A DNA stretch of 64,000 nt from a virus (IMGVR_UViG_3300025327_000015); one strand, 5' to 3'; positions 19,292 through 31,249 are shown, counted from the stretch's first letter. Notes: generated from the letters alone by a model not told the origin. Program-made: numbers and translations.

Positions 19292-21118
<1,827 letters not shown>

Positions 21119-25023: not shown

Positions 25024-25052
25024 CTTGCACTCAATCTAAAGCTGTGGTATAA
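25024..25052 (+). promoter_or_regulatory. sigma70-like promoter
   Basis: TTGCAC-17 nt-TATAAG. Confidence 0.3.
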
Positions 25053-25227
25053 GTGCCGAACTGCAAAGGCGACGGCCTGCGCAGGGGGTGGCACGAAGAG
25101 CCCTTCTCCGATGGGGCAAAGGCACTCCGGGGGAGACATCCCTACCCGATGGGGTAAACGGAGGTCCGGCGTTATCGATTACATAGCTAATCGGAGCGAC
25201 CGGTGGAGGGAGCTAGTCCCTCTCCCC

Positions 25228-25256
25228 ACTGAAAAGACCCGCTACGGCGGGTCTTT
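25228..25256 (+). terminator. Rho-independent terminator
   Basis: agacccgc-tacg-gcgggtct hairpin followed by TTTTCTTT. Confidence 0.55.
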
Positions 25257-25321
25257 TCTTTGATATCATTACTATCGGCTGGGCCGAAGAGCGTGGTTCA
25301 TCTCCTTATAAGAGAGAGGTC

Positions 25322-25372
25322 ATTGGTTCGAATCCAATCATTGCCTTGGGTGATGTAGCTCAGTGGTAGAGC
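25322..25372 (+). ncRNA. permuted tRNA-like module: T-arm + acceptor-3' strand, 2-3 nt loop, acceptor-5' strand + D-arm (candidate Y RNA tRNA-mimic domain)
   Basis: attgg-ttcgaat-ccaat then cattgcc / tt(g) / ggtgatg ta gctc agtggta gagc; the two acceptor strands pair 7/7 with two G-U. Confidence 0.45.
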
Positions 25373-25605
25373 GCTAAAGCTCCACACTCATTTCATGCCC
25401 GCCCTATACACTTTGATTCGCCTCCGGCAAGAGGCGATGAGAGATGGGCCGAAGAGGAATTGTTCTCACTGGTCAAAGCGGCAAGGCCCCGAAGTACGCC
25501 GCACGGAGCACTAGTGGCTCCGTAAGATCGATTCTTCACACCACGCCCTCTCTCTGTTAGATTTACTCCTGCGAATGGGTCGAAGTGAATGGTTCATCCG
25601 GTACT

Positions 25606-25690
25606 ACCGGGGTAGCTCAAGGGTAGAGCACTGGCTTAGAGCCAGAGGTTAGTGGTTCGAATCCACTCCTAGAACAACCATTGACATAAC
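25606..25690 (+). ncRNA. tRNA-like element (D-arm, anticodon-like hairpin with loop cttagag, T-arm) lacking a pairable acceptor stem
   Basis: gctc-aagggta-gagc; ctgg-cttagag-ccag; agtgg-ttcgaat-ccact; flanking 7-mers accgggg and cctagaa are not complementary. Confidence 0.3.
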
Positions 25691-25705
25691 ACATCCTTCG
25701 CTTTT

Positions 25706-26209
25706 ATGGGTTATCATCGGCCCATGCGGTCAGTTGAAGAGCGTTTCTGGGAGAAAGTAGATCGCTCAGGAGACTGCTGGCTTTGGATCGGCACAAAAGA
25801 CAAGCACTACGACTATGGTCGCTTTCGCATTGGAACAAAATCAACTGACAAGAAAGAGCGTGCTCACCGTGTAGCATGGATGTTGATTTTTGGCCCAATC
25901 CCAGATGGCATGTGGGTACTTCATCACTGTGATAGACCTGCCTGTGTTCGTCCAGAGCATCTCTTCCTCGGCACAAACTCAATGAATCAAAAAGATGCAT
26001 ATCGTAAAGGTAAACATGACTATCTTCACAAACAAGGTCGCAATAGCGGAGAAAAAAATGGAAGCTCGCGACTTACTAAAGAACAAGTTCTGGAAATACG
26101 TACAAGTCATAAGTCACAGTATGCGCTCGCAAAACGATTTGGAATCTCACAGCCAGCTATCTCATACATCCGATCAGGGAAGACCTGGCGACACTTGCTA
26201 GAGTGCTAA
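25706..26209 (+). CDS. HNH endonuclease with C-terminal HTH
   Basis: HRVAWMLIFGPIPDGMWVLHHCDRPACVRPEHLFLGTNSMN HNH_3 motif; similar to 8583..9038 product. Confidence 0.65.
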   Translation: MGYHRPMRSVEERFWEKVDRSGDCWLWIGTKDKHYDYGRFRIGTKSTDKKERAHRVAWMLIFGPIPDGMWVLHHCDRPACVRPEHLFLGTNSMNQKDAYRKGKHDYLHKQGRNSGEKNGSSRLTKEQVLEIRTSHKSQYALAKRFGISQPAISYIRSGKTWRHLLEC

Positions 26210-26334
26210 TTGCGAGTGGGCCGGAGGATCTACGGGTTATCTTCTGTCAAAAGACAACCCCGTATCCGTAATCACGCCCCTCGTCTGCTAATCTCCTGAG
26301 CGCGAGTGGGTCGAACGAGATTCGGTTCTCCCGT

Positions 26335-26390
26335 CATTGGTTCGATTCCAATCGCGCCCATATCACGGGCGCGTAGCTCAGTTGGTAGAC
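26335..26390 (+). ncRNA. permuted tRNA-like module upstream of rsr (candidate Y RNA tRNA-mimic domain)
   Basis: attgg-ttcgatt-ccaat cgcgccc a / tatcac / gggcgcg ta gctc agttggta ...; acceptor strands perfectly complementary; followed by tcctc-GGAA-gagga tetraloop hairpin. Confidence 0.45.
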
Positions 26391-26601
26391 GCAGAGTCCT
26401 CGGAAGAGGAACCCCCGAACTCACAACATATCCCTCGCGATTTGCATCGCTTTCTGTAGATGTGGTACAGTTACAACTGCTACTGAGCCGAAGGGTCAGT
26501 CGGTTATCTTGGCAATAAGAGCAGCCCGTGACGCTCGGGACACCCGACTCCCACACCATGCTCGTAGCTTCAAATCAACTCTTGCCGGGAGGTACAACAC
26601 G

Positions 26602-28182
26602 ATGTCTGATTATCTGACTCGCTACGGAACACGCGTCACGCCGCAGTCTGAGCGGATGCGTGAAGATCAGGTTCTCAACGAAGCTGGCGGCTTTGTTTGG
26701 GAGATCGACGCCTGGGCGCGGATGCGTCGTTTCCTAATTCTCGGAAGCGAAGGGGGATCGTATTACGCTTCCGAATTCCAGGCAACGAAGGATTCGGCTG
26801 CTGCTGTACGCCAGTGCATCAAGGAAGATGGTCTGCGTGCAGTAAAGGAGATCGTAGAAATCTCGCAGAAGGGCCGGGCTCCAAAGAATGATCCGGCACT
26901 CTTTGCGCTTGCCTGCGCGATTTCACTGGGTGATAAGGAAACGCGCTCGGCAGCTGCTGAGGCGCTACCTCTTGTCGCCCGTATTGGAACACATCTCTAT
27001 CATTTCGCCGCCTACGCGGAGACGATGCGCGGTTGGGGCCGGACGATGCGCTGGGCTGTTCAGAACTGGTATGACCGCAATCCCGAGCAGCTTGCACTTC
27101 AAGCGATCAAGTATCGTCAGCGAGATGGCTGGTCGCACCGTGATCTCTTGCGCCTAGCACATCCTTCTCGAAATGAAGAGACAGCTTCGCTCTTTAACTG
27201 GATCACGAAGGGTGTTCCAGAGGAAGGCAAATCTCTATCTGAAATCGTGGGAGGTTTTGAGCAGGCACAAAGCGCTACCACGCCACAGATAACGGCAAAT
27301 CTTGTCCGCGAGTATGGTCTACCACGCGAAGCACTCCAGACTGAGCATCTGAACTCGAAGGAAGTCTGGGCTGCGCTTCTAGAGATGCAGATGCCGATGA
27401 CGGCCATGCTACGTAATCTGGCCACCATGACACGAGTCGGAATTCTCGACTCGAATGATCATCGCAAGCTGGTTCTGAATGCCTTCGATAACCAGGAGGC
27501 GATCACAAACTCGCGTCTGCATCCGCTCGCCATTCTGATCGGAATGGAGACGTATGCACAGGGACACGGTATGCGTGGTCAGCATACTTGGAGCCCAATC
27601 GCTTCCATCGTGGACGCTCTCGACGGTGCTTTCTATAAGGCGTTCGGGAACGTGCAGCCTACTGGCAAGCGCCTACTCGTAGGTGTGGATGCTTCTGGAT
27701 CGATGCGAAGCGGAGTGATCGCAGGTGCTCCAGGAATGATGCCGGTTAAGGCAGCAATGGCAATGGCGCTCGTTTTCACTGCCACCGAGCAGGATGTCGA
27801 AACGGTGCTCTTCGATACCTCACTCTCGACATTCCCACTCTCTGCTCGACAGCGACTGGACGACGTTGTTCGTCGCCATCCAGGCCATGGACGAGGAACA
27901 GATGTCGCGCTTCCGATGCAATACGCAACAGCGAAGAACCGGCAGGTTGATGGCTTCGTTCTTCTAACGGATATGCAGACTTGGGCTGGTTATCAGCATC
28001 CAGCACAGGCGCTTCAGCAGTATCGCGAGCGTAGCGGTATTCCAGCACGCCTTGCCAGCGTCGCACTGATTGCTAATCGCTGGCAGGTGGCAGATCCACA
28101 AGATCCGCTAGCCTTCGAAGCAATCGGATTCGACACCGCTACACCAGAACTCGTTTCCGGCTTCGTTGCTGGTGAGTTCTAA
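26602..28182 (+). CDS. rsr: Ro60/Rsr ortholog (TROVE domain + vWA domain)
   Basis: Collinear similarity to human Ro60 throughout ([26 protein letters not shown] vs [75 protein letters not shown] MIDAS); GGGAGG RBS 7 nt upstream of ATG. Confidence 0.9.
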   Translation: [526 protein letters not shown]

Positions 28183-28355: not shown

Positions 28356-28916
28356 ATGAAAAAAATCCCAACCATTTTTGAGCGCGACTGGGAGGGAGAT
28401 CGCTCGCGGGTTCTCAATCGAATTGTTCCCGGTTGCGAATGGGTATTCACTGGTGAGGGCATCGCTACGCGCAAATACGACGGCAGCGCTTGCATGGTCG
28501 AAGACGGTGTGCTCTGGAAGCGGCATGAGGTTCGTAAAGGAAAGCAAACTCCCGAGGACTTTCGTCTTGTTGAGGATGACTTGGAAACCGGCAAGACAGT
28601 CGGATGGATTCCCGTGAGCGACGGTCCGGAGGATAAATGGCATCGGGACGCTTTCGCCCGCGATATGACTCTGGCAGACGGAACCTATGAACTAGTTGGA
28701 CCAAAAGTTCAGGGCAATCCTGAGGGCTTCGAGCAGCACACTCTCATTCGTCATTCAGATGCTGAAACGTTTATCGTCTTGCGGCGTACTTTTGAAAGAA
28801 TCCGCGATTTGATCTCTGAACTCGATGTGGAAGGCTTCGTCTTCCAGCATCCTGACGGACGCATGGCGAAAATCAAAGGACGAGATTTCGGAATCAAACG
28901 TTCGAGTAAAGAATGA
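28356..28916 (+). CDS. small ATP-dependent nucleotidyltransferase, ligase family (KxDG ligase, RNA-ligase-like)
   Basis: Motif I KYDGSAC, motif IV EGFVFQ, motif V MAKIKGRD; 186 aa; stop overlaps next start (ATGA). Confidence 0.55.
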   Translation: MKKIPTIFERDWEGDRSRVLNRIVPGCEWVFTGEGIATRKYDGSACMVEDGVLWKRHEVRKGKQTPEDFRLVEDDLETGKTVGWIPVSDGPEDKWHRDAFARDMTLADGTYELVGPKVQGNPEGFEQHTLIRHSDAETFIVLRRTFERIRDLISELDVEGFVFQHPDGRMAKIKGRDFGIKRSSKE

Positions 28917-30730: not shown

Positions 30731-31179
30731 CCAAGAACCTTTCGCACCGCCGCCTCCGGCAACCAGTAAATCTTGTCAGACGGATTTTCGACGGCAGCCG
30801 TCAGCGCGACGGCAGCCAGAATATCACCGTCGAGCTTCGCCTTCTCAATCAGATACCAGCCGTAGCGCCGACGAATCTTGATTGGGATATCGGTGAGACG
30901 GACTCCTGCAACCGCCCCACCATTCCGGTCGGGCGTCACAGTGTCCTCCTTTGCGTTTAGCCCGAAAAGTCCTTGATGGGATTTTCGCTTTGGCGCTCGC
31001 AGTTATCCTGGAGCGTTTTTGCGATTGATCCTGCAAACTCGATACCGACCAACTCGTCTAGTAACGAGAAATCGAGTGTTATTCCCTCATGCGGGAATGT
31101 CGAGTAGGCCCAAGCTCTGGATGGCTTGAGCCTCAGATACAGGACTTCTCCGGTGTCATAACGCATGACGCTCATTGAC

Positions 31180-31249
31180 ACGGCTGGTAGGAATCGAACC
31201 CACTTCGTACCGGGTTGGAGCCGGACGAGACACCATGTCTCAGCCGTAT
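31180..31249 (-). tRNA. tRNA-Trp-like (anticodon CCA) with compact D-arm
   Basis: Acceptor acggctg/cagccgt perfect; anticodon stem ccgg/ccgg loop ctccaac; T-arm gtggg-ttcgatt-cctac. Confidence 0.45.

What the first reader, a model, noticed from the sequence alone, without database searches (positions are those of the whole stretch)
25322..25372. Circularly permuted tRNA-like module 1 (T-arm and 3' acceptor strand placed before 5' acceptor strand and D-arm): candidate Y RNA tRNA-mimic domain
Reading 5' to 3' there is a canonical T-arm (attgg-TTCGAAT-ccaat), then an acceptor 3' strand (cattgcc), a 2-3 nt loop, an acceptor 5' strand (ggtgatg) and a canonical D-arm (ta-gctc-agtggta-gagc). The two acceptor strands pair 7/7 with two G-U pairs. 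The result is a tRNA elbow with a capped acceptor stem and no free ends. This matches what I recall of the bacterial YrlA Y-RNA tRNA-like domain rather than a tRNA gene. The same permuted layout recurs at 26335..26390, right upstream of rsr. A third, conventional-order tRNA-like piece at 25606..25690 has D, anticodon-like and T arms but no pairable acceptor.
Basis: seen in the sequence. Interest (0 to 1): 0.85.

Follow-up and report, generated by a model that had tools for sequence, protein, structure and literature searches.

The report
Phage Y RNA genes mimicking tRNA

Summary
Confirmed. Window 25322-25372 holds, in this order, a T arm, a closed 7-bp acceptor hairpin, UA and a D arm. This permuted layout occurs twice in the window against 0 expected. 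It is the core of a ~127-nt unit, Y1 (25277-25403). The unit's ends pair into a stem carrying GCCGAAG, the GNCGAAN0-1G motif of bacterial Y RNAs, 1.3 kb upstream of rsr (TROVE + vWA_Ro60) on the same strand.

Seven orthologous units from related metagenomic phages support the whole fold: 94% of cells are paired against 36-48% in slid controls, and 21 of 38 pairs show compensatory changes. A model built from them scores 76-97 bits on the units upstream of the Ro-like genes of Bxz1, BearBQ and FuzzBuster. It also finds exactly six units in the window:
- Y1 and Y5 are YrlA-type.
- Y3 is a tRNA-like domain in conventional order.
- Y2, Y4 and Y6 are hairpin types.

The host genome is a tailed phage. 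Verdict: a new member of a known kind (YrlA Y RNA).

The extras are the large six-gene array, the clade-specific Y3 subtype, anticodon-loop-like V loops, per-unit -10-like motifs, and a conserved anti-Shine-Dalgarno element. Expression and Rsr binding are untested.

The parts
25261..25269 (+). Extended -10-like motif TGATATCAT, 8 nt before the Y1 stem (candidate promoter of Y1)
   Evidence: TGNTANNNT lies at the same offset before 5 of the 6 window units and 15 of 39 units in 7 loci, against about 0.45% expected per unit. A consensus match only.
25277..25403 (+). Y1: complete YrlA-type Y RNA unit (~127 nt) that contains the flagged module
   Evidence: Clade model R1 gives 127.8 bits (Y1 is a training member). 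Covariation in 7 orthologues. Rfam YrlA local hit at 25315-25375.
25277..25289 (+). Y1 5' strand of the putative Rsr-binding stem: GGC, bulged U, GGGC, CGAAG (GNCGAAN0-1G motif = GCCGAAG, 25283-25289)
   Evidence: Pairs with GCCC-GCC at 25397-25403. This helix has 5 of 9 pairs with compensatory changes.
25301..25315 (+). Y1 'V' hairpin: 4-bp stem with 7-nt loop CUUAUAA, followed by GAGGUC
   Evidence: helix 3, 100% paired. The loop is 7 nt in 49 of 52 YrlA-type units, with U33, R37 and A38 conserved.
25322..25338 (+). Y1 T arm mimic (ATTGG-TTCGAAT-CCAAT)
   Evidence: 4 of 5 pairs compensatory, 100% paired.
25339..25355 (+). Y1 closed acceptor-stem mimic: 7 bp, loop UUG
   Evidence: 7 bp in all 7 orthologues; 4 of 7 pairs compensatory.
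25356..25372 (+). Y1 UA linker (U8, A9) and D arm mimic (GCTC-AGTGGTA-GAGC)
   Evidence: invariant, so no covariation information.
25397..25403 (+). Y1 3' strand of the terminal stem (GCCC-GCC)
25420..25435 (+). 'A-element' GCCTCCGGCAAGAGGC between Y1 and Y2, complementary to the rsr ribosome-binding region
25439..25554 (+). Y2: Y RNA-like unit with the same Ro-type stem (GAGAGA-U-GGGC-CGAAG / GCCC-UCUCUC) and a hairpin-type distal module
   Evidence: R1 30.2 bits, E 5.5e-7. Fold z = -3.75.
25571..25701 (+). Y3: Y RNA-like unit whose distal module is a conventional-order tRNA mimic (extra hairpin 25598-610, D 25615-29, anticodon-like arm 25631-45, T 25651-67, 3-bp acceptor remnant)
   Evidence: R1 44.3 bits. 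Rfam tRNA 42.9 bits, local. Covariation in 6 orthologues: 96% paired, 19 of 40 pairs compensatory. R2 search.
25706..26209 (+). HNH_3 homing-endonuclease-like ORF inserted between Y3 and Y4 (an intruder, not part of the RNA system)
   Evidence: Pfam HNH_3, E 2.6e-14. PHROG HNH endonuclease. Absent from the related arrays.
26212..26284 (+). Y4: short Y RNA-like unit (GCGAG-U-GGGC-CGGAG / GCCC-CUCGU) with a single hairpin, loop CUGUCAA
   Evidence: R1 21.6 bits, E 1.2e-4 with filters off. Fold z = -2.6.
26300..26439 (+). Y5: second YrlA-type unit (T 26336-52; 7-bp closed acceptor 26353-73; D 26376-92 with a bulged C; extra hairpin after D at 26397-410; no V hairpin)
   Evidence: R1 51.9 bits, E 7e-13. 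Rfam YrlA local hit, 29.3 bits. Covariation in 4 orthologues.
26479..26568 (+). Y6: Y RNA-like unit in the rsr leader, ending 33 nt before the start codon (GCUAC-U-GAGC-CGAAG / GCUC-GUAGC)
   Evidence: R1 26.9 bits, E 4.3e-6. A unit of this type is the last one before rsr in all related loci.
26579..26592 (+). 'B-element' CTCTTGCCGGGAGG, which includes the rsr Shine-Dalgarno sequence and is complementary to the A-element
26602..28182 (+). rsr: Ro60 orthologue (526 aa)
   Evidence: Pfam TROVE 1.5e-45 and vWA_Ro60 2.3e-44. NCBIfam Rsr 494 bits, below the equivalog cut-off of 900. PHROG 850.
28356..28916 (+). RLIG1-like 5'-3' RNA ligase gene next to rsr (context)
   Evidence: phrog_14301 'RNA ligase', E 5.7e-61. 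PDB 9c6l 'RNA ligase1', E 2.4e-14, with KxDG (TRKYDGS) aligned.

Best explanation
Window 25322-25372 is the tRNA-like effector domain of a YrlA-class Y RNA gene, Y1 (about 25277-25403, + strand), carried by an uncultivated tailed phage.

Shown at the level of sequence and comparison:
- The RNA's 5' and 3' ends pair into a bulged stem that displays GCCGAAG, the motif through which bacterial Ro60/Rsr is thought to grip Y RNAs.
- The middle folds as V hairpin, T arm, closed 7-bp acceptor hairpin and D arm. This is an L-shaped tRNA look-alike with no free CCA end.
- Y1 is the first of six tandem units that share the same Ro-type stem but carry different distal modules.
- All six lie on the rsr strand, within 1.33 kb upstream of the phage rsr gene.

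Inferred by homology with D. radiodurans, S. Typhimurium, M. smegmatis and Thermus phage phiLo:
- Each RNA docks on the phage Rsr ring through its stem.
- The distal module is used to recruit or gate a partner, either host PNPase or, for the tRNA-shaped modules, a tRNA-recognising factor that has not been identified.
- Infection would thus produce a set of Ro60 ribonucleoproteins acting on structured RNA or tRNA metabolism.

Because the acceptor mimic is exactly 7 bp, as in M. smegmatis YrlA, cleavage by RNase P followed by CCA addition is possible, but it is not shown.
For: Anatomy and chance:
-.

rsr identity:
-.

Rfam:
- YrlA aligns T-AS-D to both permuted modules.

Fold and covariation:
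- RNAalifold on 7 orthologues from phages with 68-78% identical Rsr recovers terminal stem, bulged U, GGGY/RYCC helix, CGRA loop, helix 2, V, T, AS and D. 21 of 38 pairs have compensatory changes.
- 94.3% of cells are paired against 36-48% with slid partners, and 0 of 500 shuffles reach the observed values.
- 52 units from about 50 phage loci give 94.8% paired and 35 of 38 compensatory pairs. That alignment was fitted to the model.

Clade model R1:
- With filters off it finds exactly six + strand units in 12 kb, with E from 1e-4 to 7e-13 for the five non-training units.
- It scores 76.5-97 bits on the regions upstream of the Ro-like genes of Bxz1, BearBQ and FuzzBuster.
- All 118 hits in 77 IMG/VR Rsr loci are upstream of rsr and on its strand.

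Published definition and properties of YrlA:
- PMC4201824 and bioRxiv 10.1101/312249.
- Phage Ro60 with Y RNA-like RNAs binding host PNPase: PMC12135203.

Genome context:
- Tape measure, portal, major head and TerL genes show a tailed phage.
Against: - There is no expression, end-mapping or Rsr-binding data. Everything rests on sequence and comparison.
- The Rfam YrlA gathering score (69 bits) is not reached (33.7 bits, local). The regions upstream of Ro-like genes in Bxz1, BearBQ and FuzzBuster also produce no YrlA hit at gathering, so that threshold is narrow.
- Y1's outer stem is short (3 + 4 bp), and its YUAY element reads UUCAUC rather than the UUAUC of its orthologues.
- The partner of the tRNA-like domain is unknown even in model organisms.
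- The host is unknown (TerL is at most 36% identical to any isolate).
- The stable caps on the acceptor hairpins of several orthologues (UUCG, UGCG) argue for a hairpin that stays closed rather than one opened by RNase P.
Confidence: 0.88

Rival explanations
1. The units are not free-standing small RNAs. They are cis-acting structures of a long rsr leader or polycistronic precursor, and their main role is to let Rsr regulate its own synthesis. In this view Rsr binds Ro-type stems in its own 5' UTR, and an anti-Shine-Dalgarno element controls translation.
For: - Y6 ends 33 nt before the rsr start codon, and a unit of this type holds that position in every related locus.
- The A-element (25420-35) can pair with the SD region (26579-92) at -23 to -28 kcal/mol. 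This is the best of more than 1000 windows in 6 of 7 loci, and L011 carries one compensating change.
- M. smegmatis YrlA and YrlB are processed from a single precursor encoded upstream of rsr.
Against: - Five of the six units have their own TGNTANNNT -10-like motif at a fixed offset.
- The tRNA-like modules are conserved and covary far beyond what a protein-binding leader would need.
- An HNH ORF is tolerated in the middle of the array.
- In characterised species these RNAs accumulate as discrete Rsr-bound species.
- The rival is compatible with the main explanation for Y6 but not sufficient for Y1.
Confidence: 0.12
2. Y1 and Y5 are precursors of split or permuted functional tRNA-like molecules. 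RNase P opens the 7-bp acceptor hairpin, the 3' strand is trimmed and receives CCA, and the two-piece molecule is aminoacylated or used by the translation or tRNA-repair machinery.
For: - The acceptor mimic is exactly 7 bp in Y1, Y5 and all 7 Y1 orthologues.
- M. smegmatis YrlA, which has a 7-bp stem, is cut by RNase P and receives CCA in vivo.
- V hairpins carry an anticodon-loop signature followed by an AGGUC variable-loop-like linker.
- An RLIG1-like RNA ligase gene and tRNA genes lie beside rsr.
Against: - No CCA is encoded after the acceptor 3' strand.
- Loops of 3-4 nt with stable caps (UUG, UUCG, UGCG) are poor RNase P leaders.
- 'Anticodons' in the V loops vary freely among orthologues (UAU, GCU, GAU, GUC), so nothing constrains decoding.
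- The terminal stem shows no bulge-helix-bulge, and bacteria are not known to have the splicing endonuclease.
- The ligase is adjacent to rsr in only 2 of about 85 loci.
Confidence: 0.12
3. The tRNA-like pieces are debris: tRNA 3'/5' fragments left by integration (attL/attR), decayed tandem tRNA genes, or a two-piece tmRNA.
For: - T-loop and D-arm sequences are tRNA-like.
- There is a weak Rfam cyano_tmRNA hit at 26336-26375 (24.1 bits).
- A dimeric-tRNA origin for YrlA has been proposed.
Against: - Each piece sits inside a covarying Ro-type stem conserved in dozens of phage loci, always upstream of rsr and on its strand.
- The tmRNA hit is far below its gathering score (70), and ARAGORN finds no tmRNA or tag.
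- No integrase lies in this island.
- Compensatory changes show purifying selection on the fold.
Confidence: 0.01

Closest known systems
YrlA of Mycobacterium smegmatis and of mycobacteriophages (Chen et al. 2014, PMC4201824)
   Same: - Encoded upstream of rsr on the same strand.
- GNCGAAN0-1G near the 5' end.
- Order V - T - AS - D, with a 7-bp acceptor mimic.
- The clade model R1 scores 76.5 bits upstream of the Ro-like gene of mycobacteriophage Bxz1 and 93-97 bits in Gordonia and Microbacterium phages.
   Different: - Rsr is at most 47% identical to that of any isolated phage.
- T-stem sequences differ (A-U rich ATTGG/CCAAT).
- The neighbourhood holds six units, against the two described for M. 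smegmatis.
[quoted passage not shown]
Salmonella Typhimurium YrlA (crystal structure PDB 6CU1; Wang et al. 2018, bioRxiv 10.1101/312249; Rfam RF02553)
   Same: - Circularly permuted tRNA mimic with a closed acceptor stem.
- Same tertiary-contact nucleotides, a UA linker and a conserved D arm.
- The Rfam model aligns T-AS-D.
   Different: - The Rfam gathering score is not reached.
- Salmonella YrlA has a shorter acceptor stem and no V hairpin, and lies in the RtcR-controlled rsr-yrlBA-rtcBA operon.
- Here there is a V hairpin with an anticodon-loop-like 7-nt loop, a phage context, and an RLIG1-like ligase instead of RtcB.
Deinococcus radiodurans Yrn1 (comparison for unit Y3)
   Same: - The T and D elements are in conventional order, with an anticodon-like arm between them.
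- The Ro-binding stem takes the place of the acceptor end.
   Different: - Y3 has a full D arm, a 5-bp anticodon-like stem, a short acceptor remnant capped by an extra hairpin, and a YrlA-style Ro stem (GNCGAAG).
- Yrn1 has only partial D features and a metazoan-like two-strand Ro site.
- The Y3-type model R2 finds this subtype only in the window's clade and its near relatives.
Thermus phage phiLo Yrl1/Yrl2 with phage Ro60 (PMC12135203)
   Same: - Phage-encoded Ro60 with several Y RNA-like genes carrying a CGAA motif just upstream.
- A proposed Ro60-Y RNA-host PNPase complex.
   Different: - Two RNAs there, six here.
- The passages retrieved from that paper do not mention tRNA-like domains.
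- Binding is shown experimentally there and not here.
Circularly permuted tRNA genes of Cyanidioschyzon and some archaea
   Same: - The 3' half precedes the 5' half.
- The acceptor is initially a closed loop.
- The ends pair into an extended stem.
   Different: - Those stems carry bulge-helix-bulge motifs and are spliced to give true tRNAs.
- Here the stem carries a Ro-binding motif with a 1-nt bulge and an asymmetric internal loop, and no mature tRNA is predicted.

Membership tests
YrlA-class Y RNA (Chen 2014; Wang 2018; Rfam RF02553) | Encoded within about 4 kb of a Ro60/rsr gene, on the same strand | tested here: met
   Y1 starts 1325 nt upstream of the rsr ATG (26602), both on the + strand.
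YrlA-class Y RNA (Chen 2014; Wang 2018; Rfam RF02553) | GNCGAAN0-1G motif near the 5' end | tested here: met
   GCCGAAG at 25283-25289, 7 nt from the predicted 5' end. The motif or its CGGA variant is present in all six units.
YrlA-class Y RNA (Chen 2014; Wang 2018; Rfam RF02553) | 5' and 3' ends pair into a stem that contains the motif | tested here: met
   MFE fold. Consensus fold with compensatory changes in 5 of 9 pairs of the terminal helix and 6 of 9 pairs of helix 2.
YrlA-class Y RNA (Chen 2014; Wang 2018; Rfam RF02553) | Order T arm, closed acceptor-like hairpin, UA, D arm (permuted relative to tRNA) | tested here: met
   T and AS helices are 96-100% paired with compensatory changes.
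YrlA-class Y RNA (Chen 2014; Wang 2018; Rfam RF02553) | Nucleotides for tRNA tertiary contacts (U8-A14, R15-Y48, G18-U55, G19-C56, U54-A58) | tested here: met
   All are present in Y1 by position. Whether the contacts form in three dimensions cannot be tested with these tools.
YrlA-class Y RNA (Chen 2014; Wang 2018; Rfam RF02553) | Conserved YUAY at the start of the V region | tested here: inconclusive
   Four of the six orthologues, plus Y4 and Y6, have UUAU(C). Y1 itself has UUCAUC.
YrlA-class Y RNA (Chen 2014; Wang 2018; Rfam RF02553) | Reaches the Rfam RF02553 gathering score (69 bits) | tested here: not met
   33.7 and 29.3 bits, local matches to model positions 23-86. Control: the regions upstream of the Ro-like genes of Bxz1, BearBQ and FuzzBuster also give no YrlA hit at gathering, while clade model R1 links them to Y1 at 76-97 bits. 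The Rfam threshold therefore does not cover phage or actinobacterial-type YrlA.
YrlA-class Y RNA (Chen 2014; Wang 2018; Rfam RF02553) | Discrete transcript bound by Rsr; pseudouridine 55 and dihydrouridine added by tRNA enzymes | not testable with these tools
   No transcriptome or biochemical data are available.
Canonical tRNA gene | Contiguous cloverleaf with a 7-bp acceptor stem formed by the 5' and 3' ends | tested here: not met
   Module 1 scores 20.8 bits on Rfam tRNA, E 0.35, through a forced alignment, and ARAGORN makes no call on modules 1 or 2. Y3 matches only model positions 6-65; its acceptor pairs at most 5 of 7, and it carries a Leu-type anticodon with a short variable loop.
Circularly permuted tRNA gene (algal/archaeal type) | Bulge-helix-bulge splice motif in the stem formed by the transcript ends | tested here: not met
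   The consensus structure has a 1-nt bulge and an asymmetric 5/7-nt internal loop carrying CGRA, not two 3-nt bulges 4 bp apart.
Two-piece (permuted) tmRNA | tRNA-like domain plus tag reading frame; detection by ARAGORN or Rfam | tested here: not met
   ARAGORN finds no tmRNA. The cyano_tmRNA hit is 24.1 bits against a gathering score of 70, and covers the T arm and acceptor only.
Ro60/Rsr protein (partner gene) | TROVE HEAT-repeat ring plus vWA domain | tested here: met
   Pfam TROVE 1.5e-45 and vWA_Ro60 2.3e-44. The NCBIfam Rsr equivalog cut-off is not reached (494 against 900 bits), so this is a divergent orthologue.

The most novel reading that the evidence does not exclude
The six-gene array may be a modular 'bait library'. 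A common Ro60-docking stem would present different tRNA-shaped or anticodon-loop-shaped modules:
- YrlA-type modules whose V hairpin is a true anticodon-arm mimic (7-nt loop, U33, R37, A38, then an AGGUC variable loop).
- A clade-specific unit in conventional order with complete D, anticodon and T arms.
- Minimal units that carry only an anticodon-like loop.

Phage Ro60 particles could then capture, decoy or shield several tRNA-directed host factors during infection, for example anticodon nucleases, RNase P or modification enzymes. This would work together with the neighbouring RLIG1-like RNA ligase and the phage tRNA genes. rsr translation would be tied to array processing through the conserved anti-Shine-Dalgarno element.
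Probability: 0.12. Interest if true: 0.8.

Novelty: new member of a known kind. Interest (0 to 1): 0.42.

Why it matters
The flagged module adds one more well-supported, phage-borne member to the YrlA family of tRNA-mimicking Y RNAs, whose cellular partner is still unknown.

The comparative set assembled here is more useful than the module alone:
- This phage clade carries 5-8 Y RNA units per rsr locus.
- Three or more different ways of wiring a tRNA-like fold onto the same Ro-type stem sit side by side.
- The loop of the 'V' arm has the signature of an anticodon loop.

Such natural variation shows which parts of the tRNA shape are under selection: the elbow, a 7-bp acceptor length and an anticodon-like loop. 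It also gives well-defined RNAs for pull-downs aimed at the long-sought effector of the YrlA tRNA-like domain. The dense covariation could be used to widen the Rfam YrlA model, which gave no gathering-level hit in any of the ten phage rsr loci scanned here.

Tried and rejected
- Megablast of the locus against isolated phages found no match.
- The search for related loci with the single Rsr protein in viral contigs found nothing. With an Rsr alignment in GTDB genomes, 63 pattern matches appeared but none was confirmed. The host therefore remains unknown. TerL is also at most 36% identical to any isolate.
- The Rfam gathering scan of the window returned only tRNAs.
- My first regex-plus-stem detector for units had a high background (about 6 hits per shuffled window). 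I replaced it with covariance models R1 and R2.
- The exact-pattern scan for the repeated CCGATGGGG motif of the upstream structured region returned more than 120 viral contigs. My own estimate puts this at about the number expected by chance for 18 specified bases with a variable gap, so it is uninformative.
- The Annual Review on bacterial Ro60 (PMC10870794) and the supplements of Chen 2014 are not held. I could not check whether larger arrays or anticodon-like V loops are mentioned there.
- An RNA-repair operon reading resting on the RLIG1-like ligase was weakened: the ligase is near rsr in only one other locus (L041).
- The att-remnant, tmRNA and true permuted-tRNA readings were considered and rejected (see the rival explanations).

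Full report
**Observation.**
- T arm ATTGG-TTCGAAT-CCAAT, 25322-25338.
- Acceptor 3' strand CATTGCC, 25339-25345; loop UUG; acceptor 5' strand GGTGATG, 25349-25355. All 7 positions pair, two as G-U.
- UA, 25356-25357.
- D arm GCTC-AGTGGTA-GAGC, 25358-25372.

Positions equivalent to U8, A14, G15/C48, G18G19, U54-U55-C56 and A58 are all occupied correctly. The T-loop word GGTTCGAWTCC occurs six times in the window against 0.09 expected. The permuted combination 'T loop, 15-35 nt, GTAGCTCA' occurs exactly twice, at 25325 and 26339, and never in 100 shuffles. The 7.6-kb locus is identical in five independent assemblies.

**What surrounds it.**
- The ORF at 26602-28182 is a Ro60/Rsr orthologue: TROVE 1.5e-45, vWA_Ro60 2.3e-44, NCBIfam Rsr 494 bits.
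- The window is a tailed phage genome with tape measure, head-tail adaptor, major head protein, portal and large terminase genes. The window's locus also occurs on a ~109-kb metagenomic contig.
- The flagged module is not isolated. At 25277-25289 the sequence GGC-U-GGGC-CGAAG pairs with GCCC-GCC at 25397-25403. This places GCCGAAG, the GNCGAAN0-1G motif that Chen et al. 2014 associate with Rsr binding, in a bulged terminal stem.
- The same stem grammar recurs five more times before rsr: 5-7 bp, bulged U, GGGY/RCCC, CGRAG, second helix.

**Comparative evidence.**
- Rsr homologues of 68-78% identity were traced to metagenomic contigs. All carry 5-8 such units in the gene-free 0.8-1.5 kb upstream of rsr.
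- Seven orthologues of Y1 give an RNAalifold consensus of terminal stem, Ro helix, helix 2, V hairpin, T arm, 7-bp acceptor hairpin and D arm, with 21 of 38 pairs compensatory.
- Counting gives 94.3% paired cells against 36-48% when partners are slid, and none of 500 shuffles reaches the observed values.
- A covariance model built from this alignment (R1), run without filters over 12 kb, finds exactly six + strand hits above noise:

| Unit | Bits | E-value |
|---|---|---|
| Y1 | 127.8 | training member |
| Y5 | 51.9 | 7e-13 |
| Y3 | 44.3 | 8e-11 |
| Y2 | 30.2 | 5.5e-7 |
| Y6 | 26.9 | 4e-6 |
| Y4 | 21.6 | 1e-4 |

- The next hits are genuine tRNAs at 16 bits.
- In 77 IMG/VR loci encoding Rsr relatives, all 118 R1 hits are upstream of rsr and on its strand, with one to six per locus.
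- 52 strong YrlA-type units give 94.8% pairing and 35 of 38 compensatory pairs. That alignment was fitted to the model, which favours the structure.

**Link to the known family.**
- The Rfam YrlA model aligns T-AS-D to both permuted modules (33.7 and 29.3 bits) but stays under its gathering score of 69.
- This is not evidence against membership. The regions upstream of the Ro-like genes of mycobacteriophage Bxz1, Gordonia phage BearBQ and Microbacterium phage FuzzBuster also yield no YrlA hit at gathering.
- R1 scores those same regions at 76.5-97 bits, with the same architecture. Chen 2014 reports YrlA-related sequences in 22 bacteriophages, including several mycobacteriophages.
- The literature already describes YrlA as a circularly permuted tRNA with a closed acceptor stem. 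It proposes an origin from dimeric tRNAs. [quoted passage not shown]
- Phage Ro60 with upstream Y RNA-like genes that engage host PNPase is also published.
- The module is therefore a new member of a known kind.

**How it most likely works.**

Shown here:
- A conserved, covarying RNA fold made of a Ro-type stem plus a tRNA-like domain.
- Six such units on the rsr strand.
- TGNTANNNT -10-like motifs at a fixed offset before five of the six units.

Inferred from homologous systems:
- Each RNA docks on the Rsr ring through the GGGY-CGRAG stem.
- Its distal module tethers or gates a partner. That partner is PNPase in D. radiodurans, Salmonella and phage phiLo, and is still unidentified for the tRNA-like domain.

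The strict 7-bp length of the acceptor mimic in all orthologues fits mimicry of the tRNA acceptor/T minihelix. Whether it is opened by RNase P is open. The stable UUCG/UGCG caps in orthologues argue for a closed hairpin.

**Features beyond the published picture, as far as the accessible papers go.**
1. Y3 is a unit with a YrlA-style Ro stem whose distal domain is a conventional-order tRNA mimic, with full D, anticodon-like and T arms.
   - Its acceptor is reduced to three pairs and capped by an extra hairpin.
   - Six orthologues give 96% pairing and 19 of 40 compensatory pairs.
   - Its model R2 finds it only in this clade and its near relatives.
   - Chen 2014 regarded the two orientations (YrlA and Yrn1) as independent lineages. 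Here both sit in one array.
2. The 'V' hairpin loop is 7 nt in 49 of 52 units.
   - Position 32 is C or A, U33 is present in 46 of 49, R37 in 49 of 49 and A38 in 48 of 49.
   - The loop is followed by GAGGUC. This is the signature of an anticodon loop plus a class-I variable loop, whereas Chen 2014 equated V with the variable arm.
3. Y5-type units lack V but carry a hairpin after the D arm.
4. Other loci contain still larger permuted tRNA remnants.
5. An element between units (25420-35) is complementary to the rsr Shine-Dalgarno region (26579-92).
   - The duplex energy is -23 to -28 kcal/mol, the best of more than 1000 windows in 6 of 7 loci.
   - L011 carries a compensating change, and the pair is present in 11 loci.

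**Rivals.**
- A purely cis-regulatory leader is plausible for Y6 but not for Y1-Y5.
- Processing to a split, CCA-tailed tRNA-like molecule is possible but unsupported.
- att remnants, decayed tRNAs and tmRNA are excluded by covariation, genomic placement and the ARAGORN and Rfam results.

**Limits.**
- There is no expression or binding evidence.
- The host is unknown.
- The RLIG1-like ligase beside rsr is seldom linked to rsr elsewhere, so an RNA-repair role is only suggestive.

**Scores.** Interest 0.42. The array-level variants are what deserve follow-up.

Noticed in passing
window 25420-25435 and 26579-26592: GCCTCCGGCAAGAGGC, between Y1 and Y2, is nearly the reverse complement of CTCTTGCCGGGAGG, the rsr Shine-Dalgarno region. 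Exactly one such pair exists in each of 11 related loci. The duplex is -23 to -28 kcal/mol and the best of more than 1000 windows in 6 of 7 loci. L011 carries a compensating A>G / T>C change. This is a candidate long-range anti-SD pairing or processing stem.
   Followed up: partly
window 25261-69, 25555-63, 26196-204, 26286-94, 26463-71: TGNTANNNT (extended -10-like) motifs lie at a fixed offset before Y1, Y3, Y4, Y5 and Y6. Only 11 such motifs occur on the + strand of the whole window. 15 of 39 units in 7 loci have the strict motif. This suggests the units are separate transcription units; Y2 instead follows the A-element.
   Followed up: partly
window 25045-25262: A strongly structured segment (MFE -106 kcal/mol, z = -5.7) lies between a TTGCAC-17-TGgTATAAG promoter-like site and a 12-bp terminator (25231-25258). 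It contains CCGATGGGG twice. It is absent from the related phages and has no convincing Rfam match. Possibly an unrelated ~200-nt sRNA gene.
   Followed up: partly
window 25706-26209: An HNH_3 / His-Me finger / HTH homing-endonuclease-like ORF is wedged between Y3 and Y4, starting 5 nt after Y3. It is absent from all related arrays. L006 has a different ORF inserted at another inter-unit position.
   Followed up: partly
window 28356-28916: A 186-aa protein just after rsr matches phrog_14301 'RNA ligase' (6e-61) and PDB 9c6l 'RNA ligase1' (2e-14), with the KxDG motif (TRKYDGS) aligned. It is an RLIG1-like 5'-3' RNA ligase. It is found near rsr in only one other locus (L041).
   Followed up: partly
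A6 alignment (52 units); window 25305-25311 and 26244-26250: V-hairpin loops of YrlA-type units carry an anticodon-loop signature: 7 nt, C/A32, U33, NNN, R37, A38, followed by an AGGUC-like linker. Y1 has CUUAUAA and the Y4 hairpin has CUGUCAA. The 'anticodon' triplets vary freely.
   Followed up: partly
L013 1592-1770, L011 3482-3662, L006 3447-3607, L006 3611-3745, L007 1583-1729: Other array units contain larger or differently permuted tRNA remnants. One type runs GGGTAGAGCA, anticodon arm, variable loop, T arm, closed acceptor, then TAGCT-GCCGAAAGGC-AAGC. Another runs T, AS, D, then an anticodon-like arm. They look like intermediates of a dimeric-tRNA origin.
   Followed up: no
L007 5842-5913, L011 5763-5831; window 31177-31248: ARAGORN calls tRNAs with a CUA anticodon (amber-suppressor type, labelled tRNA-Pyl) downstream of rsr in two related phages. 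In the window, the tRNA gene in the comparable position downstream of rsr is tRNA-Trp(CCA). This hints at stop-codon reassignment in relatives.
   Followed up: no
L013 3922-4154: Three 72-74-nt tRNA genes with Leu anticodons (GAG, UAG, CAA) lack the long variable arm expected of bacterial tRNA-Leu. Y3's anticodon-like loop also reads UAG.
   Followed up: no
L017 (Streptomyces phage SparkleGoddess) 494-642, 1607-1838: Model R1 finds several unannotated Y RNA-like units interspersed with annotated tRNA genes upstream of the Ro-like gene of an isolated Streptomyces phage.
   Followed up: no
window 19292-21118 (-): A 608-aa protein with about 20 collagen triple-helix repeats (Pfam Collagen, 4e-59) lies in the tail/structural module. 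It is probably a fibre protein.
   Followed up: no
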